DNA from: an uncultured Bacilli bacterium
Lineage (GTDB): Bacteria; Bacillota_I; Bacilli_A; RF39; UBA660
DNA: 64,000 bases
Assembly (NCBI GenBank): GCA_944363795.1
Contig: CALVVG010000001.1
Location: forward strand, 373-64,372
Reading direction: 5' to 3'
Position numbers and translations under genes: made by a program. A model generated the notes under the pieces. That model had not been told where the DNA came from and did not search any database. It saw only the letters and a program-made list of their open reading frames with translations. Within the stretch, counting starts at the first letter, position 1. Every line of letters starts with the position of its first letter. This document shows positions 32,085 through 59,924 of this stretch, one piece after another.

Positions 32085-32570
32085 CTATCCCTCTTTCTTT
32101 TTATTTGTACTGCCAAACCCACCAGTTCTTTTATCTGTGGTAGCATCATTATCACAAACCAAATATTTTGTAAAAATACCTTGAGCATATCCCATGCCTT
32201 TTTCAACAACAAATTCTTTATCTCCTTCGTTTTGTAACGATACAAATAAATGGCCTTCATTTTCTGAATTACCATAATAATCAGAATCGATTATGCCAAC
32301 TTGATTTGTTAATCTAACATTAAATTTAACTCCAACACTGCTACGAACTACAATTAAAAGCATTTCATCATTAGCAAATTTTGCTTTATATCCTGTAGGT
32401 ATTTTTTTTATTTCTCCCGGTTTTATATTAAATTTATCTATAGCAAAAAAATCATATCCAGCACTATGGCTGGTCATTCGCTTAGGTAATATATATTCTT
32501 CATATAATTTTTTATCACTTTTATAATATTTTGAAAATTCTTCAAAGCTAATTTTTTCAAATTTTCTCAT
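32085..32570 (-). CDS. dut: dUTP diphosphatase
   Basis: All five dUTPase motifs are present: AGYDFF, VRSSVG, GIIDSDYYG, GYAQG and RTGGFGSTN. Confidence 0.85.
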   Translation of the reverse strand: MRKFEKISFEEFSKYYKSDKKLYEEYILPKRMTSHSAGYDFFAIDKFNIKPGEIKKIPTGYKAKFANDEMLLIVVRSSVGVKFNVRLTNQVGIIDSDYYGNSENEGHLFVSLQNEGDKEFVVEKGMGYAQGIFTKYLVCDNDATTDKRTGGFGSTNKKKEG

Positions 32571-32582
32571 AAAACCACCTCA

Positions 32583-32795
32583 AAATAAAAATCATAAACT
32601 AAGGACGAGATAACCCGCGGTACCACCTTAATTCATGATTTGCATGCACTTAATTTTATAACGGTTTAAATCCGATTTTAACTCCAGAACCATGTTCAAT
32701 ACCTTTTCTTGTTCTTTTACACCTAACAAGAACTCTCTTTAAAGAAAATAATATTTACTCTTTCCTTCATCATTAAACTATTTTAATTTTAACAC
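32583..32795 (-). ncRNA. T-box riboswitch leader, probable Met specifier, upstream of dut-metG
   Basis: On the minus strand, the GA motif AAAGAGAG (stem I) is followed by ...AACAUGG... (an AUG plus purine specifier candidate). The conserved T-box sequence AAUUAAGGUGGUACCGCGGG follows. A competing terminator (AAAUCAUGAAUUAAGG...CCUUAGUUUAUGAUUU) plus a U-run lies immediately before the dut RBS. A promoter, TTGATA-17-TAAAAT, sits upstream. Confidence 0.75.
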
Positions 32796-42219: not shown

Positions 42220-42645
42220 TTATTTTTTTTCTCGCAAATTAGCAAAAAATGTCTTTAATATGGCTTTATATTCTGCTTCTTTAATATTTTCAATTTTTAT
42301 GAATTTGGTTTTATTATATTCTTTTTTATTTTCTAGTTTATCAACTAAATAAAAAACCTTATCTATACGGCATTGTTTTATTATTTCTGCGCACATCGAA
42401 CAAGGTTTTAATGTAACTATCATTGTTGATCCTTTTAAATTCCAATTTTTTTCATTTTTCATTGCCATAATTAGAGAATTAACTTCAGCATGTCCTAAGA
42501 CATTATTATTTTTTTCTCTTGTGTTATAACCTTTTCCAATAATTATGCCATCTTTAATAACTATTGCTCCAATCGGTATATCACCATTTTGTTTAGCTAC
42601 GCAAGCTAATTTAATTACTTCATCAATATAATCATCTAAATTCAC
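42220..42645 (-). CDS. tadA: tRNA-specific adenosine deaminase TadA (GTG start giving VNLDDYIDEV... with a GGAGG RBS; the track ORF start overlaps ffs)
   Basis: Contains the deaminase zinc motifs HAEVNSL and PCSMCA. Confidence 0.85.
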   Translation of the reverse strand: MNLDDYIDEVIKLACVAKQNGDIPIGAIVIKDGIIIGKGYNTREKNNNVLGHAEVNSLIMAMKNEKNWNLKGSTMIVTLKPCSMCAEIIKQCRIDKVFYLVDKLENKKEYNKTKFIKIENIKEAEYKAILKTFFANLREKK

Positions 42646-42660
42646 AAAAACCTCCAAATA

Positions 42661-42738
42661 AAAAGTGCACACAAACATTGGCTGATGTGGCTGCTATCTT
42701 CCGATTCTGACCAGGTTACAGCATATTTGTTGCACAAA
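42661..42738 (-). ncRNA. ffs: small-type SRP RNA (4.5S-like)
   Basis: The minus-strand transcript carries the conserved domain IV elements in order: CCUGGUCAG, then AUC-GGAA-GAU (a GNRA tetraloop helix), then AGCAGCC. It also has terminal pairing, a 3' U-run, and an upstream TTGACA-17-TATTAT promoter. Confidence 0.6.
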
Positions 42739-42787
42739 ACTATAATACCAAATTAATTATTTAGTGTCAATTAATTGTTTTAAAATT

Positions 42788-42801
42788 ATTTCCCGGGAAA
42801 T
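42788..42801. other. exact Noc-binding site (NBS) palindrome ATTTCCCGGGAAAT
   Basis: A perfect 14-bp match to the B. subtilis NBS consensus, embedded in a 24-bp perfect palindrome AAATTATTTCCCGGGAAATAATTT. Confidence 0.6.
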
Positions 42802-43003
42802 AATTTTAAATGAATAATAATTTTATGCAATTATTTATTATTATATAAAAAAAAGGTATTTAATATTTTATAAATTTGCCTTAAACACATAAAAAAACAA
42901 GGATTTTACGTGCAAAATAAAAAGCAAGAATTTTTTTAAAGATAATCCGCTTGCTCGAAAAACGAACATTTGTTTATATTTGTTATAAAATATAAATATT
43001 TAA

Positions 43004-43019
43004 TGTTTCACGTGAAACA
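43004..43019. other. parS site 1 (TGTTTCACGTGAAACA)
   Basis: A perfect 16-bp palindromic parS consensus, lying within a 20-bp palindrome. Confidence 0.85.
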
Positions 43020-43094
43020 TTAAATGATATGATCATTTTTTAATAAATTTGACGTAAATTAAGTTTTTACAAAAATCAAATTTATAAGTAACTA

Positions 43095-43110
43095 TGTTTC
43101 ACGTGAAACA
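43095..43110. other. parS site 2
   Basis: An identical 16-mer, lying within a 26-bp palindrome. Confidence 0.85.
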
Positions 43111-43137
43111 TAGTTAAGTTTAAAAAAATTATCAAGC

Positions 43138-43230
<93 letters not shown>

Positions 43231-43266
43231 TTTTTGCTTTTTTATATATAATTAACTCTTAATCAA

Positions 43267-43282
43267 TGTTTCACGTGAAACA
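43267..43282. other. parS site 3
   Basis: An identical 16-mer. Confidence 0.85.
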
Positions 43283-43339
43283 TTAAAACTAAAAATATAT
43301 ATTATATTTATATAGTAAAATATAATAACATTAAAACAA

Positions 43340-43355
43340 TGTTTCACGTGAAACA
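43340..43355. other. parS site 4
   Basis: An identical 16-mer, lying within a 34-bp perfect palindrome. Confidence 0.85.
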
Positions 43356-43410
43356 TTGTTTTAATGTTAGTTTGCTTCATTTAAATTGATATATTTCAAT
43401 ATAAAAGTTA

Positions 43411-43426
43411 TGTTTCACGTGAAACA
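43411..43426. other. parS site 5
   Basis: An identical 16-mer, lying within a 32-bp perfect palindrome immediately downstream of the gyrA stop. Confidence 0.85.
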
Positions 43427-43444
43427 TAACTTTTAATTGCATTA

Positions 43445-45886
43445 CTAACAGTTGCCTTCTTCTGTTTTATCATTTATTTCTTTATCAACTAAACTTATTG
43501 TAGAAACTTTTTGATTGTCCTTTAAATTAATTAATCTTAAGCCTTGAGTTGCACGACCTAAAACGGATATTTGATCTATAGGCATTCTCATAGTCATTCC
43601 CGAATCTGTCATTATTACTAATTCTTTAGTTTCTTCAACTATTTTAATAGCCACAATGCCACCATTTTTATTAGTAATATTTAATGCTTTAACTCCTTTG
43701 CTTCCTCGACTGGTTTGTCTAAAGTCACGAACTTTTGTTTGTTTGCCGTAACCTTTTTCAGTTACTAATAATATAGTATCATCTTCATTAACAATTTCAC
43801 AGCATATACATTTGCCACTATCTAAGTTAATTCCTCGAACTCCGCTAGCTGTACGTCCCATGACTCTAATATCATTTTCATTAAATTTTACCATTCTCCC
43901 ATTAGTATTTCCTAATAAAACTAAATTTGCACCATCCGTCTTTTTTACATCAATTAATTCATCATCATCTTTTAATGTGATACAAATTTTACCATTATTT
44001 CGTATATTTTCAAATTCATTTATTAAGGTTCTTTTAACAATACCTTTCTTTGTAGCAAATAATAAATATTTATAATTTTCATCCTTGCTAATTTTAATAA
44101 CGGCATTAATTTTTTCACTTTTATCAATAGGTAAAAGATTAATAATTGGTATTCCTTTAGATTGACGATTAAATTCTGGAATCTCATATCCTTTTAAGCG
44201 ATAAACTTTACCTTTATTAGTAAAAAATAACACAAAATCATGAGTTGATAAGTTAATTAAATGTTCAACAAAATCTTCATCATTAGTGGTTATTCCCTTT
44301 ATTCCAACACCGCCCCGATTTTGGGCTTTAAAAGTATCAGAAGCAGTTCTTTTAATATAACCCTTGTTAGTTATTACTAATAATACATTTTCTTCAGGAA
44401 TTAATGATTCATCTTCAATAAAATCAATTGCAGTCATATCAATTTTAGTACGACGTTCATCACCATATTTATTTTTTATTTCTAACATTTCTTCCTTAAT
44501 TATATTTAATACCAAATTTTTATCGGCTAAAATAGCTCTTAAACGTTGTATTTCAGTTAATAAATTATTTAATTCATCTTCGATTTTTTCTCTTTCTAAA
44601 CCTGTTAAACGTCGTAATTTTAATTCTAGAATACTATCTGCTTGAATTTCACTTAAATTAAATCTTTCAATTAATTTTGTTTTAGCTTCTTGATCAGCTT
44701 TAGATTCTTTTATTACTTTAATAACTTCATCAATATTATCTAATGCAATTTTGTATCCTTCTAAAATATGAACTCTTTTTTCCGCTTTATCCAAATCAAA
44801 TTGAGTTCTTCTTATGATTACTTCAACTTGAAAATCTACATATTTAGAAATAATACTTTTTAAATCTAAAGTTCTTGGAATCTTATTATCTAGCATTAAT
44901 AAAGTAATACTATATGTAGTTTGTAATTGTGTATGTCTATATAAATTGTTTAAAACTACACTAGCATTAGCATCTCTTTTTAATGTAATTACTATCTTAA
45001 CACCATTTTCTAAATTTGTTTCTTCATGATAATCTGCAATACCATCTATGATTTTATCTCTAACTAATTCTCCAATTTTCTTTTTTAATTCTAAAGTGTT
45101 CATTCCATAGGGAATTTCAGTAATAATTATACGATGTTTTCCAGCATTTTCTTCTATTTCAGCTTTACAACGGATGGTTATAGTTCCTTTTCCAGTTTCA
45201 TAAGCTTTTTTAATGCCTGAATTACCTAAAATAATTGCACCAGTTGGAAAATCTGGGCCTTTAACATATTCCATTAATTCTGAAATTGTAATATCTGGAT
45301 TATCAATGTAGGCAATACAACCATCAATTACTTCACCTAAATTATGGGGAGGAATATTAGTTGCCATACCAACTGCAATTCCCATGGTTCCATTAACTAA
45401 AATATTGGGGAATCTACTAGGCAAAACTTCTGGTTCCATTTCGGTTTCATCAAAATTAGGCTCAAAATTAATAGTATTTTTATTAATATCTCTTAATAAT
45501 TCTAAAGAAATTTTAGCTAATTTTGCTTCAGTATAACGCATTGCTGCAGCACCATCACCATCCATATTACCAAAATTTCCGTGTCCATCAACCAGCATAT
45601 AACGATAACTAAAATCTTGAGCCATTCTAACCATTGCATCATATATAGATGAATCTCCATGAGGATGATATTTTCCCATTACATCCCCTACAACTCTAGC
45701 ACATTTACGATATTGTTTATCTGGAGTATACCCTGAATCATACATTGAGTATAAAATTCTTCTATGAACTGGTTTTAATCCATCTCTTAAGTCCGGTATA
45801 GCTCTTGAAACGATAACACTCATGGAATAGTCTAAAAATGATTTTTCTATTTCATCAACAATATTGTTTTGTTTAATTCTATCCAT
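43445..45886 (-). CDS. gyrA: DNA gyrase subunit A
   Basis: An 813-aa ORF with the active-site Tyr region ([11 protein letters not shown]) and the QRDR motif ([10 protein letters not shown]). Confidence 0.95.
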
Positions 45887-49014: not shown

Positions 49015-49446
49015 TTATCTAGAAGTATATATTACTAATAATCTACTACATTTTAAAATTTGATTATTAAAAACAGTATACGAAGTATTAATTAATTTAT
49101 GATATCCATTTATAAATTCAATTTTAATCATTTTATTTATTTGTTGATAATCCTTTATTAACTTAAAGTTAAACCAATATACCTTGTTATCATTATCTTT
49201 TAAATAAAAGAAAATAAGATGATATTTTTCACTTATAATAATTGGTATTTTATAATAACTTTTTATATAGTTTTTAGATCCCTTTATCCTTCCTTTCAAT
49301 GTTGAACCATAGTAAATACAACTATTTTCTAAGACTTTTTTAATATTAGTAACGTTATCAACATATTGATTATCTAATTCTTCAATTATGAGCTCATTTT
49401 TTTGTTCTTCTAAAAATAATGTTTTTTCATTAATAATATAATTCAT
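49015..49446 (-). CDS. ComK-family competence transcription factor-like protein
   Basis: SCIYYGSTLKGRIKGSKNYIKSYYKIPIIIS...LIFFYL...VYWFNF...FINGY...FNNQ aligns with the B. subtilis ComK core SCRFFGSSYAGRKAGT...KPPIMV...IFLFPT...GWIS...FSNG...FENQ. It has its own GGGAGG RBS. Confidence 0.55.
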   Translation of the reverse strand: MNYIINEKTLFLEEQKNELIIEELDNQYVDNVTNIKKVLENSCIYYGSTLKGRIKGSKNYIKSYYKIPIIISEKYHLIFFYLKDNDNKVYWFNFKLIKDYQQINKMIKIEFINGYHKLINTSYTVFNNQILKCSRLLVIYTSR

Positions 49447-52136: not shown

Positions 52137-52508
52137 AACCTCACCCCACTAACAATATTTCCTTGAATACATTTTAAACCATTTTTGATAAAAATAAAAG
52201 TACAAAATACAATAAATAATAATCAAAAATTAATCAACAAAATTATTAACAAAAAATATAAGATAAATTCGACAAAAAACGACATTATCCACAAAATCAA
52301 CAAATATAAAATAACAAAAATTATAAATCAACAAATTATCAACGGTATAGTTAATAAAATGTTGTTAATTATGTTTAAAGTTATCCACATTTTATCAACA
52401 ACCCACATTAATTTGTGGGGATAATCCAAAAATAAACGTTTTTTCCTTGACTTATTTAGATGATTAATATTATAATAAAAAAGCTAAAGAAAAGGAGAAA
52501 GTGTAATA
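52137..52508. other. oriC DnaA-box cluster between dnaA and rpmH
   Basis: Consensus TTATCCACA boxes at 52285-52293 and 52381-52389, TTATCAACA at 52392-52400, an inverted TGTGGGGATAA at 52414-52424, TTATCAACG at 52336-52344, plus several weaker TNATCAACA boxes. Confidence 0.8.
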
Positions 52509-54817: not shown

Positions 54818-56170
54818 ATGAATGATACTATTTGTGCAATATCAACATCTTTAGGTGTTGGAGCAATATCAATTGTAAGAGTGACTGGTGAAGATGCTAT
54901 AAAAATTGTTGATAGTATATTTGATAGCAGTTTAGTGGATAAAAAAACGCATACTATTCATTATGGCCATATTAAATATAATAATGAAATAATTGATGAA
55001 GTGTTAATCATGCTTATGAAAGCACCTAAAACTTATACAAAAGAAGATATAGTTGAAATAAATTGTCACGGTGGAAATTCTACTACCAAAAAAGTTTTGG
55101 AAATATTACTTCTTTGTGGATGTCGTTTAGCGGAACCTGGCGAATTTACTAAAAGGGCTTATTTAAATGGCCGAATAAATCTTTTGGAAGCAGAGTCTGT
55201 AAATGATTTAATTGTTGCTAAAACTGATGCTGCTAGAATGTTAGCTATAAATAATGTTGATGGTAATTTAACTAAAAGAATTAGAAGTATTAGGGAAAAA
55301 ATAGTAAAAATACTTGCTAATATAGAAGTAAATATTGATTATCCAGAATATCAAGATGAAGTACAAGTAACACAACAATTAATGAATGAATATTTAACTG
55401 ATATTAATAAAGAATTAAAAAAATTGGTTGAAGGTGCAAAAAATGGTCGCATTATTAAAGAGGGAATAAATATTGCTATAATTGGAAGACCTAATGTTGG
55501 AAAAAGTAGTATTTTAAATCATTTACTTGATGAAGAAAAAGCTATTGTTACTGACATTCCTGGCACAACTCGTGATATTGTTGAAGGCTCAATTACTCTA
55601 AATGGAATAGCAATTAATTTTATCGATACTGCCGGAATTAGAGAAACTTCTGATGTTGTGGAAAAAATAGGAGTAGACAGAAGTAAAAGGTCTGCAGAAT
55701 CAGCTGATATAATTTTATTTGTGGCAAATAATAATGAAAAATTAACTAAAGAAGACCTAGAATTACTTGAAAAATACGATTCAGAAAATTTAATTATTTT
55801 TGTAAATAAATGTGATTTAGAACGAAAAATAGAAATTCCGGGAAATATTTCCCGGGAAATAATTTGGGGGAATACGATTGATATAAATGGTCTTGATTCT
55901 TTAAAAATTGCTATAAAAAACAAATTAAATTTAGATAGTATAGTTAATAAAGATATGAGTTATTTATCTAATATTCGTCAAATAGATTTAGTAAATAAGG
56001 CAAATTCTGCAGTTGAAAATGCTTATAATGCTTTAAAAAATGATATGCCTATTGACATGATTGAAATCGATTTGAAATCTGCCTGGGAATATTTAGGAGA
56101 AATAATAGGGGATTCTTATCAAGATGAGCTTGTTGATAATATATTTAGCAATTTTTGCTTAGGAAAGTAG
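54818..56170 (+). CDS. mnmE: tRNA modification GTPase MnmE
   Basis: A 450-aa ORF with G-domain motifs (GRPNVGKSS, DTAG) and the C-terminal CxGK (FCLGK). Confidence 0.9.
   Translation: MNDTICAISTSLGVGAISIVRVTGEDAIKIVDSIFDSSLVDKKTHTIHYGHIKYNNEIIDEVLIMLMKAPKTYTKEDIVEINCHGGNSTTKKVLEILLLCGCRLAEPGEFTKRAYLNGRINLLEAESVNDLIVAKTDAARMLAINNVDGNLTKRIRSIREKIVKILANIEVNIDYPEYQDEVQVTQQLMNEYLTDINKELKKLVEGAKNGRIIKEGINIAIIGRPNVGKSSILNHLLDEEKAIVTDIPGTTRDIVEGSITLNGIAINFIDTAGIRETSDVVEKIGVDRSKRSAESADIILFVANNNEKLTKEDLELLEKYDSENLIIFVNKCDLERKIEIPGNISREIIWGNTIDINGLDSLKIAIKNKLNLDSIVNKDMSYLSNIRQIDLVNKANSAVENAYNALKNDMPIDMIEIDLKSAWEYLGEIIGDSYQDELVDNIFSNFCLGK
55833..55860. other. NBS pair inside mnmE: exact ATTTCCCGGGAAAT at 55847-55860, overlapping a degenerate copy (AAATTCCGGGAAAT) at 55833-55846
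   Basis: The same 14-mer as at 42788-42801, and 17 nt are shared between the two loci (TTTCCCGGGAAATAATT). CCCGGG occurs nowhere else in the window. Confidence 0.55.
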
Positions 56171-58778: not shown

Positions 58779-59924
58779 TTGATTTATGTGAATAATACAC
58801 AAAGTGAAGAAAAAATATTACAAATACCAATTGAAGATATAATACCCAATCGATTTCAACCACGATTATCTTTTGATGATGCTTCATTAAATGATTTGGC
58901 TTCTTCCATTAAACAACATGGAATAATACAGCCTTTGGTTTTAAGAAGAATTAACGATAAATATGAAATAATTGCTGGCGAAAGAAGATATAAAGCTGCT
59001 AAAATGGCTGGTTTATCGACAGTACCGGCGATAATTTCTAACTTAAGCGATAGTGCGAGTGCGGAAGTTGCAATAGTTGAAAATATTCAAAGAAAAGATT
59101 TATCAGCTATTGAAGAAGCAAAATCCTATCAAATGCTTTTAGATAAAGGCTATATGACTCAAGAGGAATTAGCAAAAAAAATGGGCTTATCTCAATCGGC
59201 AATTTCCAATAAACTAAGATTATTATCATTAGATGAATCTGTTCAAAATGCTGTAATTAAAGAACAAATTTCTGAAAGACATGCAAGATCATTATTAAAA
59301 GTAAAAAACAAAGATATGCAAAAAGTTTTATTAAATAAAATTATTACTGAAAGACTTACTGTTAAACAATTAGAAGATGAAATAAAAAAAATAGTTGGTA
59401 GTACCAATGATAATAGTGAAGATGTTCCTTTAGTAGAAAATATACCTAATATAGCTAATATAGTTAATAAAGCTGTTGATATAACATCTTTAAATAATAA
59501 TGTCAATGTCGAATCATTGAATGAAGCTAAAGTTAGTGATAAAAGTAATATACCAAAATCATCAGCAATGTTTGGAGCTAGTCCAGAAAAGATGCCTAAT
59601 AAATTTTTTAACTTTCTAGAAAATGAAGCTGCAAATTTGGACATTGAAGAACCTCAAATATCATATGATACTTTAGATGATAACAAGGAAAAAGAAAAAA
59701 CAGTTGATTTGCTTAATAAAACTGATGATATTGAAATGTTAGATGATTTTATAATTCCAAGTGTTGTTAATAAAGATAATCAAATAGTAAATGATAGTTA
59801 TTTAGATCAAGTAATTAAAACAATTCGAAATTTGAATTTTGATAGTGATAAAGTAACTATTGAAGAAATAAATTTACCATTAGAATATCATATAAATATA
59901 AAAATAAAAAAAGATAAGTTATAA
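58779..59924 (+). CDS. noc: ParB-family protein with Noc-type DNA-recognition residues (nucleoid occlusion protein-like) and a low-complexity insertion of about 100 aa. No ParA gene is adjacent.
   Basis: ParB N-domain ILQIPIEDIIPNRFQPR...GERRYKA. The HTH GLSQSAISNKLRLLSL...ISERHARSLL matches B. subtilis Noc (GKGQSTIANKLRLLKL...ITERHARALI) rather than Spo0J (GKSRPHIANHLRLLTL...LSMGHGRTLL). It sits after rsmG, where noc lies in B. subtilis. Confidence 0.65.
   Translation: MIYVNNTQSEEKILQIPIEDIIPNRFQPRLSFDDASLNDLASSIKQHGIIQPLVLRRINDKYEIIAGERRYKAAKMAGLSTVPAIISNLSDSASAEVAIVENIQRKDLSAIEEAKSYQMLLDKGYMTQEELAKKMGLSQSAISNKLRLLSLDESVQNAVIKEQISERHARSLLKVKNKDMQKVLLNKIITERLTVKQLEDEIKKIVGSTNDNSEDVPLVENIPNIANIVNKAVDITSLNNNVNVESLNEAKVSDKSNIPKSSAMFGASPEKMPNKFFNFLENEAANLDIEEPQISYDTLDDNKEKEKTVDLLNKTDDIEMLDDFIIPSVVNKDNQIVNDSYLDQVIKTIRNLNFDSDKVTIEEINLPLEYHINIKIKKDKL

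What the first reader, a model, noticed from the sequence alone, without database searches (positions are those of the whole stretch)
42783..42806. Exact Noc-binding-site palindromes: one beside the parS array and a tandem pair embedded in the mnmE coding sequence
ATTTCCCGGGAAAT is the B. subtilis NBS consensus. It occurs exactly at 42788-42801, extended to a 24-bp perfect palindrome, and again at 55847-55860 inside mnmE, overlapping a degenerate second copy at 55833-55846. The two loci share 17 identical nt. CCCGGG appears nowhere else in this roughly 27%-GC window. Chance occurrence of this GC-rich 14-mer twice is therefore very unlikely. The site in mnmE is in frame and encodes IPGNISREI, so its sequence is constrained by both protein and DNA-binding needs. 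Together with the Noc-type recognition helix in the ParB homolog at 58779-59924, this argues for a functional nucleoid-occlusion system. The NBS lies only about 200 bp from a parS array, so two paralogous CTP-dependent clamps would load side by side.
Basis: partly seen in the sequence, partly recalled or inferred. Interest (0 to 1): 0.65.

Follow-up and report, generated by a model that had tools for sequence, protein, structure and literature searches.

The report
Noc-binding sites beside origin parS array
Two exact copies of the DNA motif bound by the cell-division protein Noc flank the replication origin of an uncultured gut bacterium; related genomes show the motif is under selection, is often interleaved with chromosome-segregation (parS) sites, and pairs with an unusual Noc relative that lacks Noc's membrane-binding tip.

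Summary
Exact 16-bp NBS sites (TATTTCCCGGGAAATA) lie at 42787-42802 and at 55846-55861 inside mnmE, against about 1.5e-5 expected per window. Site 1 is a 32-bp perfect palindrome, not 24, and the two loci share 20 nt, not 17. Five perfect parS sites lie 202-624 bp from site 1.

The sites look functional. Related genomes hold 116 more exact NBS cores, 23 of them in 1.23 Mb where 0.006 are expected, and almost no NBS/parS hybrids. The mnmE site sits in a 23-nt run invariant across 13 species, and the site turns over among non-homologous origin-proximal positions. The "tandem second copy" is not supported.

The ParB homolog (58788-59924) has Noc-type base-reading residues (Q,K,S,R) and groups with canonical Noc as a sister clade. 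It lacks Noc's N-terminal membrane-targeting helix and scores below the curated Noc threshold. It carries a long disordered linker with a conserved NKFFNFLE motif.

Across this lineage NBS sites concentrate inside the parS array between gyrA and the SRP RNA gene, sometimes as alternating tandem units. I found no description of this in the literature searched.

No canonical ParB or ParA was found within reach. Classical nucleoid occlusion is therefore plausible but unproven. Verdict: a new variant of a known system.

The parts
42787..42802 (.). NBS site 1: exact 16-bp Noc-binding site TATTTCCCGGGAAATA. It is intergenic, 17 nt upstream of the -35 box of the SRP RNA promoter and 9.5 kb from oriC.
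42779..42810 (.). 32-bp perfect palindrome enclosing NBS site 1. Its arms match the lineage's extended NBS consensus AAAtT-core-AaTTT.
55846..55861 (.). NBS site 2: exact 16-bp NBS inside mnmE (codons for I-S-R-E-I), 3.4 kb from oriC and 2.9 kb upstream of the noc-like gene in the same gene string.
55841..55863 (.). 23-nt run (GGAAATATTTCCCGGGAAATAAT) invariant in 13 species. It is the longest invariant stretch in mnmE; the other longest runs are 11 nt.
55833..55846 (.). Judged not to be a site: chance level, and not conserved apart from the GGAAAT flank.
43004..43426 (.). parS array: five perfect 16-bp TGTTTCACGTGAAACA sites (43004, 43095, 43267, 43340, 43411), each inside a longer perfect palindrome (20-44 bp). 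It lies between gyrA and the SRP RNA gene.
58788..59924 (+). Noc-clade ParB-family gene (378 aa from the GTG called by gene finders; the ORF opens at the TTG at 58779). It has a ParB_N + HTH core with specificity residues Q,K,S,R and no N-terminal amphipathic helix. A ~130-aa disordered linker carries the conserved motifs DxPLV..PNIxxIV and PNKFFNFLE..AANLD, followed by a small C-terminal domain.
54818..56170 (+). mnmE, host gene of NBS site 2 and first gene of the tight mnmE-mnmG-rsmG-noc string.
42649..42746 (-). Small SRP RNA gene (ffs). The order gyrA -> parS/NBS array -> ffs is conserved in relatives.
42742..42770 (-). Best sigma-70-type promoter match (TTGACA-17-TGgTATTAT, 11/12), presumably for ffs. 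NBS site 1 lies just upstream of it.
52285..52424 (.). DnaA-box cluster (2 perfect and 2 one-mismatch boxes) in the dnaA-rpmH spacer at the GC-skew switch. This marks oriC, which the two NBS sites bracket.
43445..45886 (-). gyrA, whose 3' end marks the start of the parS/NBS array region in this lineage.

Best explanation
The two palindromes are functional loading sites (NBS) for the Noc-clade, ParB-family protein encoded at 58788-59924.

1. A dimer reads the 16-bp palindrome through its helix-turn-helix. Gln reads the A at half-site position 1 and Arg reads the C at position 6, licensed by a permissive Lys.
2. The dimer binds CTP through the conserved GERR and ENxQR motifs, closes into a clamp, and spreads over several kb of flanking DNA.

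In this lineage of uncultured gut Bacilli the sites are placed around oriC. The window has them at -9.5 kb and +3.4 kb. In relatives they lie above all inside or next to the parS array between gyrA and ffs. Noc-type and ParB-type clamps are therefore loaded on the same centromere-like stretch.

The protein lacks Noc's N-terminal amphipathic helix. Any contact with the membrane or with a partner must go through another element. The conserved NKFFNFLE motif in its disordered linker is the best candidate.

Shown here: the sites exist, are far beyond chance, are conserved and turn over under selection, co-locate with parS across the lineage, and the protein carries NBS-type specificity residues and groups with Noc.

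Inferred: the physical binding, CTP clamping and spreading, the role of the linker motif, and the cellular output (division-site control, origin tethering or replication control).
For: Chance is excluded.
- The window has 2 exact 16-mers against about 1.5e-5 expected.
- 80 noc-anchored loci from other species (1.23 Mb, 27.5% GC) have 23 exact 14-mers against 0.006 expected. NBS is the only one of 140 composition-matched palindromes that recurs.
- 80 gyrA-anchored metagenome loci have 93 exact NBS and 176 exact parS cores.

There are two discrete specificities. The pooled data hold 118 pure NBS and 181 pure parS, but 0-2 copies of any NBS/parS hybrid.

There is DNA-level selection.
- The mnmE site lies in a 23-nt run invariant in 13 species, while only 22% of third-codon positions are invariant and other invariant runs are <=11 nt.
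- L031 has an exact NBS five codons away in another frame, encoding YFPGN rather than ISREI.
- Other species carry their origin-proximal NBS just after mnmE, between jag and mnmE, after dnaN, or inside rsmG.

The protein fits.
- Alignment to solved Noc and Spo0J chains gives Q, K, S, R at positions 173/179/184/201.
- Jalal et al. 2020 (PMC7383237) show Q173 and R201 read the NBS-specific bases and that one permissive Lys suffices.
- 137 of the 138 readable quartets among the 150 family representatives (clustered at 50% identity) have Q173, K or R at 179, and R201; the exception is one QTGR. None is ParB-type R..G.
- In an NJ tree the family and canonical Noc form a clade with 100% bootstrap that excludes Spo0J/ParB.
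- GERR, ENIQR and PNRFQPR are present.
- The gene follows rsmG, as noc does in B. subtilis.

NBS co-locates with parS.
- NBS density is 6.8 per 10 kb in the 1.5 kb after gyrA (parS 19.9 per 10 kb), against 0.06 per 10 kb in gyrA and upstream.
- The median distance from an NBS to the nearest parS is 88 bp, and 37 of 51 close pairs are 18-43 bp centre to centre.
- Alternating [parS+NBS] tandem units occur in L129 (106 bp) and L131 (72 bp).
- After dereplication, 25 of 41 species-level clusters have both motifs within 3 kb of gyrA, and 13 have an NBS <=60 bp from a parS.
Against: - No binding, CTP or localisation data exist for this protein.
- It scores 277 bits on the curated Noc model, whose cut-off is 315. 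Over the same core, B. subtilis Noc scores 312 and Spo0J scores 250.
- It keeps ParB-like states at 8 of 14 diagnostic columns.
- Position 184 is Ser/Asn/Thr instead of Noc's near-invariant Lys.
- The N-terminal membrane-targeting helix, needed for occlusion in B. subtilis, is absent in the whole family.
- The linker motif is followed by acidic residues, which is atypical for a membrane-binding helix.
- The ParB that should bind the parS array was not found in the 80-kb source contig or in 160 related loci.
- Only the origin region could be examined, so the apparent concentration of NBS near oriC may partly reflect where I could look.
- Metagenome loci are partly redundant (56 clusters from 80 loci).
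- The tree rests on only five reference sequences.
Confidence: 0.78

Rival explanations
1. Classical B. subtilis-type nucleoid occlusion. NBS sites would be scattered over the origin-proximal chromosome and absent from the terminus. The protein would tether DNA to the membrane and so block Z-ring assembly over the nucleoid. The two window sites would simply be the origin-proximal members of a genome-wide set.
For: - The NBS sequence is identical to the B. subtilis and S. aureus consensus (PMC5540599).
- The protein has Noc-type specificity residues and groups with Noc.
- The gene follows rsmG.
- Away from the gyrA array, NBS density is about 1 per 50 kb (23 per 1.23 Mb). S. aureus Noc occupies 41 loci (PMC5540599), and from my own knowledge of Wu et al. 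2009 B. subtilis has roughly 70 sites in 4.2 Mb.
- The organism has a peptidoglycan wall (PBP1A next to noc).
Against: - The N-terminal amphipathic helix that mediates membrane binding, and without which B. subtilis Noc is impaired in occlusion (PMC8429893, PMC4331003), is missing family-wide.
- The protein is below the curated Noc HMM cut-off.
- NBS is concentrated 30- to 100-fold within the parS array, a pattern not described for B. subtilis or S. aureus in the papers searched.
- Terminus depletion could not be tested.
Confidence: 0.3
2. A single ParB-family protein with dual specificity. The lineage would have no separate ParB, and the Noc-like protein would bind both parS and NBS. That would explain why the two motifs sit together and why no second parB is seen near the origin.
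For: No second ParB and no ParA in the window, in the 80-kb source contig, or within +-10 kb of noc or gyrA in 160 related loci. The protein is intermediate between Noc and Spo0J in overall similarity.
Against: - Q173 and R201 are the NBS-specific states. All extant ParB orthologs have R173 and G201, and engineered dual-specificity variants mostly carry T or S at 201 (PMC7383237).
- A dual-specificity reader should tolerate hybrid sites, yet hybrids are essentially absent against about 300 pure sites.
- Separation of noc from parB has a precedent as I recall the S. aureus gene map (my own knowledge, not in the passages read); the paper itself states that S. aureus has a ParB but no ParA (PMC5540599).
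Confidence: 0.07
3. Local transcriptional elements. The palindromes would act mainly as an operator, roadblock or terminator for neighbouring genes: site 1 for the ffs promoter or as a gyrA terminator, and site 2 for autoregulation of the mnmE-mnmG-rsmG-noc string. They would not act in chromosome organisation.
For: - Site 1 lies 17 nt upstream of the -35 box of the best promoter match, upstream of ffs.
- An NBS in a similar position recurs in L088 and L090.
- In L073 an NBS overlaps the -35 region of a TGTGTTATAAT promoter upstream of mnmE.
- Origin-proximal NBS copies in relatives keep falling within or next to the operon that contains noc.
Against: - Positions relative to promoters are not conserved. 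Sites occur inside coding regions in two frames, after stop codons and after dnaN.
- Many relatives lack the ffs-proximal copy.
- Site 1 is not followed by a T-run and was not called terminator-like.
- Tandem arrays alternating with parS are not operator-like.
- A regulatory side effect of spreading is compatible with the main explanation.
Confidence: 0.1
4. Chance, or a non-protein-binding origin: an AT-rich palindrome arising by chance, a SmaI/XmaI-type restriction-modification target, or a fragment of a mobile repeat.
For: CCCGGG is a known restriction site. The two loci share 20 nt.
Against: - Expected count is about 1e-5 per window.
- There are 116 more exact copies in relatives, with strict 16-bp conservation and an extended flank consensus.
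- Identity between the two window loci ends after 20 nt, so no larger repeat is shared.
- A 6-bp restriction target cannot explain 14-16-bp conservation.
Confidence: 0.01

Closest known systems
Bacillus subtilis Noc with its NBS sites (Wu & Errington; Adams 2015 PMC4331003; Jalal 2020 PMC7383237; Jalal 2021 PMC8429893)
   Same: - Identical 16-bp NBS.
- ParB_N + HTH core with GERR and ENxQR CTP motifs.
- Q173, K179 and R201 specificity residues.
- Gene immediately downstream of rsmG (gidB) near oriC.
- Groups with Noc in the tree (100% bootstrap).
   Different: - No N-terminal amphipathic helix or helix alpha-2: about 16-19 residues precede PNRFQPR, against 39 in B. subtilis Noc.
- Ser/Asn/Thr instead of Lys at position 184.
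- A 50-600-aa disordered linker with an NKFFNFLE motif sits between the DNA-binding domain and the C-terminal domain.
- Below the TIGR04285 cut-off.
- Not followed by soj-spo0J.
- NBS sites cluster inside the parS array, sometimes as alternating tandem units.
Staphylococcus aureus Noc (Pang et al. 2017, PMC5540599)
   Same: - Same NBS core.
- The organism lacks ParA near the origin. S. aureus has ParB but no ParA.
- Binding sites lie close to dnaA/oriC, with spreading over 8-10 kb. In this window that would reach oriC from both NBS sites.
- Noc there also restrains replication initiation, a plausible output here.
   Different: From my own knowledge, S. aureus Noc retains the N-terminal region (not checked in the passages read). 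Its 41 sites are dispersed over the origin-proximal half. The passages read describe no parS/NBS composite arrays.
Chromosomal ParB (Spo0J) with parS
   Same: - Same fold and the same CTP-clamp motifs.
- 48% identity to B. subtilis Spo0J over the core, and ParB-like states at 8 of 14 diagnostic columns.
- Its sites are clustered next to oriC like a centromere.
- The window itself carries five perfect parS sites.
   Different: - Q and R instead of the invariant R173 and G201, so parS binding is not expected.
- No ParA partner nearby.
- The short N-terminus also lacks a ParA-interaction peptide (my reading of ParB biology; not tested here).
- The target motif is NBS, not parS.
RacA with ram sites, and RicO (origin-to-membrane/pole anchoring in Firmicutes; RicO: bioRxiv 10.64898/2026.03.06.710092, title and abstract only)
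   Same: Functional analogy only: a DNA-binding protein with sites concentrated around oriC that could anchor the origin region. The lineage has sporulation genes.
   Different: Unrelated protein families and motifs. No evidence here for anchoring.

Membership tests
Noc (nucleoid occlusion protein, NCBIfam TIGR04285) | ParB/Noc architecture: ParB_N (CTP-binding) domain plus HTH DNA-binding domain plus C-terminal dimerisation domain | tested here: met
   - PF02195 and PF17762 hits.
- 200 bits to solved Noc chains.
- AF2 core pLDDT of 75-89, with a small helix + two-strand C-terminal domain at residues 336-373.
Noc (nucleoid occlusion protein, NCBIfam TIGR04285) | Score at or above the curated family cut-off (315 bits) | tested here: not met
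   276.9 bits. Over the same ~195-aa core, B. subtilis Noc scores 312, the window protein 276 and B. subtilis Spo0J 250.
Noc (nucleoid occlusion protein, NCBIfam TIGR04285) | NBS-specificity residues Q173 and R201, with a permissive Lys at 179 and/or 184 (Jalal 2020) | tested here: met
   Q, K, S, R by alignment to 7OL9, 7NFU and 6SDK. 137 of the 138 readable quartets among 150 representatives have Q173, K or R at 179, and R201; the exception is one QTGR. K184 itself is not conserved.
Noc (nucleoid occlusion protein, NCBIfam TIGR04285) | N-terminal ~10-aa amphipathic membrane-targeting helix (plus helix alpha-2) ahead of the ParB_N domain | tested here: not met
   - The protein starts MNNTQSEEKILQIPIEDIIPNRFQPR.
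- Alignment begins at Noc residue ~20-26.
- All 150 representatives start the core at residue 2-8, apart from three starting at 16-19.
- A median of 16 residues precede PNRFQPR, against 39 in B. subtilis Noc.
Noc (nucleoid occlusion protein, NCBIfam TIGR04285) | Phylogenetic grouping with experimentally characterised Noc rather than with ParB/Spo0J | tested here: met
   NJ tree on 198 columns. The family plus B. subtilis and Geobacillus thermoleovorans Noc form a clade with 100% bootstrap. The family is a monophyletic sister group (80%). Only five reference sequences were used, so the placement is provisional.
Noc (nucleoid occlusion protein, NCBIfam TIGR04285) | CTP-binding/hydrolysis motifs (GERRxR, ENxQR) and CTP-dependent clamping | tested here: inconclusive
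   The motifs GERRYK (residue 64) and ENIQRK (residue 98) are present. Biochemical activity cannot be tested here.
Noc (nucleoid occlusion protein, NCBIfam TIGR04285) | Gene context rsmG(gidB)-noc-soj-spo0J at the origin | tested here: inconclusive
   rsmG-noc adjacency is met. soj-spo0J are absent downstream in the window, the source contig and 80 relatives.
Noc (nucleoid occlusion protein, NCBIfam TIGR04285) | Cognate NBS sites present in the genome far above chance | tested here: met
Noc (nucleoid occlusion protein, NCBIfam TIGR04285) | NBS sites scattered over the origin-proximal chromosome and depleted at the terminus; membrane recruitment of DNA; inhibition of division over the nucleoid | not testable with these tools
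   Only origin-region contigs (up to 81 kb) are available, and there are no experiments.
NBS (Noc-binding site) | 16-bp palindrome TATTTCCCGGGAAATA, differing from parS at half-site positions 1 and 6 | tested here: met
   Both window sites are exact. All 23 noc-locus copies in relatives show the 16-mer, and across all 118 pooled sites position -1 is T in 100%.
Chromosomal ParABS centromere | Consensus parS sites clustered near oriC | tested here: met
   Five perfect sites at 43004-43426, about 9 kb from oriC. Arrays of up to 10 sites occur in relatives.
Chromosomal ParABS centromere | A ParB with R173/G201 (and usually a ParA) encoded in the genome | tested here: inconclusive
   Not found in any sequence within reach.

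The most novel reading that the evidence does not exclude
In this large, uncultured gut Bacilli lineage, the Noc-clade protein is not a genome-wide nucleoid-occlusion factor. It is a second centromere-bound CTP clamp. It is co-loaded with ParB on composite, sometimes strictly alternating, parS/NBS arrays between gyrA and ffs. It uses a linker peptide (NKFFNFLE) instead of the N-terminal amphipathic helix to reach the membrane or a partner. Its role would be to position, tether or license the origin region, possibly substituting for the ParA that is missing near the origin.
Probability: 0.3. Interest if true: 0.75.

Novelty: new variant of a known kind. Interest (0 to 1): 0.6.

Why it matters
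Noc/NBS and ParB/parS are the textbook example of paralogous CTP-switch DNA clamps that diverged to separate jobs and separate sites. This work points to three things.

First, the exact B. subtilis NBS is used, under clear selection, in a deep-branching and abundant group of uncultured gut Bacilli. This extends the known range of the system.

Second, the cognate protein forms a sister clade to canonical Noc. It lacks the N-terminal helix through which CTP is thought to gate membrane binding. Either it reaches the membrane in another way or it does something other than occlusion.

Third, NBS and parS are deliberately placed together, down to alternating tandem units. This arrangement is not described in the literature I could search. 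It implies that the two clamp types interact, compete, or cooperate (for example with SMC loading) on the same DNA.

The arrays also provide natural test substrates for clamp-clamp collision and co-spreading experiments. The family gives a natural 'N-terminal deletion' Noc for dissecting the CTP-membrane switch.

Tried and rejected
- Exact look-up of the 381-aa ORF product failed twice because gene callers start at the GTG three codons later. The source was found through MnmE instead.
- A first Rfam call on 10 loci exceeded the size limit.
- tblastn with B. subtilis Spo0J and Soj found only the noc-like gene and no ParA. I ran it against the window, the 80 noc-anchored loci and the 80 gyrA-anchored loci.
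- Extending the source contig 10 kb to the right also gave no parA or parB.
- I ran no further search on finding the lineage's ParB. The tool lists only the best 120 hits, and these would be Bacillus-like ParBs with no link to this lineage.
- TRF shows the window's parS array is not a simple tandem repeat; only a (TTA)n microsatellite is reported.
- Site 1 as a terminator: not called by the scan.
- The 'second degenerate NBS' in mnmE was rejected.
- The mnmE peptide as an insertion was rejected.
- The linker motif as a relocated membrane-targeting helix remains only a hypothesis. Its hydrophobic moment is similar to that of Noc's N-terminus (0.44 vs 0.41-0.56), but it is followed by acidic residues. 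A scan for TM-like tails in the family found nothing systematic.
- The AF2 model is confident only for the core (mean pLDDT 64), so no fold search was run on the linker or C-terminal domain.
- Literature searches for composite parS/NBS arrays or for Noc in these lineages returned nothing relevant.
Full report
**1. The observation**

The 14-mer ATTTCCCGGGAAAT occurs exactly twice in the window, at 42788-42801 and 55847-55860. CCCGGG occurs nowhere else. Both copies match the full 16-bp NBS used in the Noc literature, TATTTCCCGGGAAATA (PMC7383237). The window is 26.8% G+C. Order-0 to order-2 Markov models expect about 1e-4 copies of the 14-mer and about 1.5e-5 of the 16-mer.

The perfect palindrome at site 1 spans 32 bp (42779-42810), not 24. 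The two loci share 20 identical bases, not 17.

The 'degenerate second copy' at 55833-55846 has three mismatches. That is the chance level for this window.

The neighbouring 'parS array' is real. It consists of five perfect 16-bp TGTTTCACGTGAAACA sites at 43004, 43095, 43267, 43340 and 43411.

**2. Surroundings**

- The GC skew switches sign at about 52 kb. A DnaA-box cluster lies at 52285-52424, between dnaA and rpmH. This marks oriC.
- The left arm reads dnaA-dnaN-(ComK-like)-recF-gyrB-gyrA. Next come the parS array and NBS site 1. Then comes a small SRP RNA gene (42649-42746, minus strand), followed by tadA, dnaX and recR.
- The best promoter match in the region (TTGACA-17-TGgTATTAT) sits directly upstream of the SRP RNA. 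NBS site 1 lies 17 nt upstream of its -35 box.
- The right arm reads rpmH-rnpA-yidC-jag-mnmE-mnmG-rsmG, then the ParB homolog at 58788-59924.
- The two NBS sites therefore bracket oriC at -9.5 kb and +3.4 kb.
- The source is a gut metagenome assembly. Relatives are uncultured Bacilli MAGs, including Candidatus Onthocola, 'Firmicutes bacterium CAG:460' and 'Clostridium sp. CAG:609'.
- The contig's right flank carries spoIIR, spoIID and spoIIID.

**3. Is the motif functional?**

I fetched 80 loci from other species, anchored on the ParB homolog (1.23 Mb, 27.5% G+C).

- They contain 23 exact NBS 14-mers against 0.006 expected, and only three one-mismatch copies.
- Of 140 palindromes with the same half-site composition, NBS is the only one that recurs.
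- Thirteen of the 23 lie at the same place in mnmE as in the window.
- Anchored on the motif, a 23-nt run (55841-55863, GGAAATATTTCCCGGGAAATAAT) is invariant in 13 species. Only 22% of third-codon positions in mnmE are invariant, and no other invariant run exceeds 11 nt.
- The host segment is a variable loop between the NKxD motif and the downstream conserved GNT. It has ordinary length and is not an insertion.
- Two relatives (L018, L012) carry a decayed one-mismatch version, CCCAGG.
- L031 has an exact NBS five codons further on, in a different reading frame: YFPGN instead of ISREI.
- Other species carry their origin-proximal copy 11 nt after the mnmE stop, in the jag-mnmE spacer, just after dnaN, or inside rsmG.

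Strict sequence conservation combined with positional turnover is what selection for a protein-binding site produces. I therefore reject the 'tandem pair'.

**4. The protein**

- NCBIfam's Noc model scores the protein at 277 bits, below its 315-bit cut-off.
- Over the same ~195-aa core, B. subtilis Noc scores 312 and B. subtilis Spo0J scores 250.
- Against solved structures it scores 193-200 bits to Noc and 185 bits to Spo0J.
- The residues that decide specificity are Noc-type. Jalal et al. 2020 showed that Q173 reads the A at half-site position 1 and R201 reads the C at position 6, provided a Lys is present at 179 or 184. All ParB orthologs have R173 and G201. The window protein has Q, K, S, R.
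- An exhaustive search returned 150 representatives clustered at 50% identity. All but one of the 138 readable quartets have Q173, K or R at 179, and R201 (the exception is QTGR), and none is ParB-type.
- A small NJ tree puts the family and canonical Noc in one clade (100% bootstrap) that excludes Spo0J/ParB. The family is a monophyletic sister group (80%). It keeps ParB-like states at 8 of 14 diagnostic columns.

Two features set the family apart from Noc.

- It has no N-terminal extension. About 16-19 residues precede PNRFQPR, against 39 in B. subtilis Noc. It therefore lacks the amphipathic helix through which Noc binds the membrane. That helix's removal impairs nucleoid occlusion (PMC8429893, PMC4331003).
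- A long linker separates the DNA-binding domain from a small C-terminal domain. The linker is predicted disordered and is about 130 aa here; family proteins total 227-821 aa.
- The linker carries short conserved motifs. P-x-N-K-F-F-N-F-L-E-[DE]-E is found in 88 of 150 representatives, against about 7 in shuffled tails. AF2 predicts it as an isolated helix at residues 272-282.
- The motif's K/R-F-F core recalls Noc's N-terminal S-R-F-F-G-L, and its hydrophobic moment is similar. It is followed by acidic residues, so a role in membrane binding is only a hypothesis.

**5. The neighbourhood of parS**

I fetched 80 metagenome loci anchored on gyrA (1.08 Mb). They contain 93 exact NBS and 176 exact parS cores.

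- The sites are almost entirely confined to the stretch after gyrA, which is the same intergenic region as in the window.
- In the first 1.5 kb after gyrA, NBS density is 6.8 per 10 kb and parS density is 19.9 per 10 kb. In gyrA and upstream, NBS density is 0.06 per 10 kb.
- The median distance from an NBS to the nearest parS is 88 bp.
- 37 of 51 close pairs are 18-43 bp apart centre to centre.
- L129, L130 and L131 carry alternating tandem units of [parS + NBS], with periods of 106, about 104 and about 72 bp.
- After dereplication at 95% identity, 41 clusters have at least 1 kb of sequence after gyrA. Of these, 38 have at least two parS, 25 have both motifs within 3 kb, and 13 have an NBS within 60 bp of a parS.
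- The order gyrA -> array -> ffs is conserved.
- Hybrids between the two motifs are essentially absent: 0-2 copies against 118 NBS and 181 parS. This argues for two separate readers with strict specificity.
- The lineage's NBS has an extended consensus, AAAtT-core-AaTTT. Site 1 matches it on both arms, which explains most of its long palindrome.

It appears to be a design feature of the lineage. The window (one NBS, 202 bp from five parS) is a modest example.

**6. What could not be shown**

- No ParA and no second ParB were found. I searched the window, the 80-kb source contig, and +-10 kb of noc or gyrA in 160 related loci.
- A canonical ParB is inferred from the perfect parS arrays and from the specificity logic. 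It was not observed.
- Only origin-region sequence was accessible, so the genome-wide distribution of NBS is unknown.
- Away from the array, NBS density in the sampled regions is about 1 per 50 kb. This is compatible with a dispersed set.

**7. Mechanism**

The most likely mechanism has four steps.

1. The Noc-clade protein nucleates on the 16-bp NBS sites.
2. It binds CTP; the GERR and ENIQR motifs are present.
3. It closes into a clamp.
4. It spreads over several kb. S. aureus Noc covers 8-10 kb around each site.

Spreading on that scale from the two window sites could reach oriC, dnaA, the parS array and the protein's own operon. The cellular output is inferred. Candidates are division-site control, origin tethering, and restraint of initiation as in S. 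aureus (PMC5540599). Because the N-terminal helix is absent, I rate classical membrane-mediated occlusion as possible but unproven.

**8. Comparison and novelty**

The site is a textbook NBS, and the pairing of NBS with a Noc-type reader is known biology. Three things depart from it:

- a sister subfamily of Noc without the membrane-targeting helix and with a motif-bearing disordered linker;
- the absence of soj-spo0J next to it;
- the embedding of NBS in parS arrays.

I found no description of such arrays in the searchable literature. I classify the finding as a new variant of a known kind.

Noticed in passing
L129 (gyrA end +560..+1010), L131 (+640..+995), L130, L128, L123, L090; window 42779-43430: Across the lineage, the gyrA-ffs spacer holds parS arrays of up to 10 copies with NBS copies embedded in them. 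In several contigs they form strictly alternating [parS+NBS] tandem units with periods of 72-106 bp. Many contigs end inside the array, so copy numbers are probably under-estimated.
   Followed up: yes
window 42998-43025, 43089-43116, 43265-43284, 43326-43369, 43402-43435: Each of the five parS sites sits in a longer perfect palindrome (28, 28, 20, 44 and 34 bp), and the flanks differ from copy to copy. That is far more symmetry than the 18-bp consensus or the AT-rich background explains. The 44-bp one scores as a bidirectional terminator-like hairpin. The cause is unexplained; arm homogenisation, hairpin function or terminator duty are possibilities.
   Followed up: partly
window 49015-49446 (-): A 143-aa ComK-family ORF (PF06338) occupies the dnaN-recF spacer, where Bacilli usually have a small S4-like RNA-binding gene. 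It is also detected in relative L070.
   Followed up: no
window 43138-43178 (and TTG repeats to ~43190): A perfect (TTA)13.7 microsatellite followed by (TTG)n lies in the middle of the parS array region, between parS 2 and parS 3.
   Followed up: no
L108-L117 (gyrA end +45..+140) and other gyrA loci: A sub-lineage uses an asymmetric parS variant, GTTCCACGTGAAAC (57 copies in the loci). Typically two copies flank one exact NBS.
   Followed up: partly
L083 13924-20652 (source contig, 3.9-10.7 kb right of the window end): Sporulation genes spoIIR, spoIID and spoIIID lie near the origin. This is notable because some public records label relatives of this low-GC lineage as Tenericutes or Mycoplasma.
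   Followed up: no
protein P0151 (family member, 242 aa): One family representative ends in a hydrophobic, TM-like tail (STILTIGLFVIFCLVIAIPRLIFV) right after the DNA-binding domain, in place of the linker and C-terminal domain. It could be a true membrane-anchored variant or a frameshift artefact.
   Followed up: no
window protein residues ~205-232 and ~308-325; family alignment A1: Besides NKFFNFLE, the linker has two more conserved short motifs: D-[DE]-[IV]-P-L-V-x-x-x-P-N-I-x-x-I-V-x-x-A-V-D-I and T-D-N-I-E-M-L-D-D-F-I-I-P. Their function is unknown; they may be partner-binding peptides.
   Followed up: partly
window 32598-32779 (-): T-box leader (Rfam RF00230, 114 bits) upstream of the gene at 32085-32570.
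   Followed up: no
window 42649-42678: The mechanically listed tadA ORF (42220-42678, minus strand) overlaps the 3' end of the SRP RNA gene by 30 nt. The real tadA start is probably a downstream ATG. The order here is ffs then tadA then dnaX; as I recall (not checked), B. subtilis has tadA before the SRP RNA gene.
   Followed up: no
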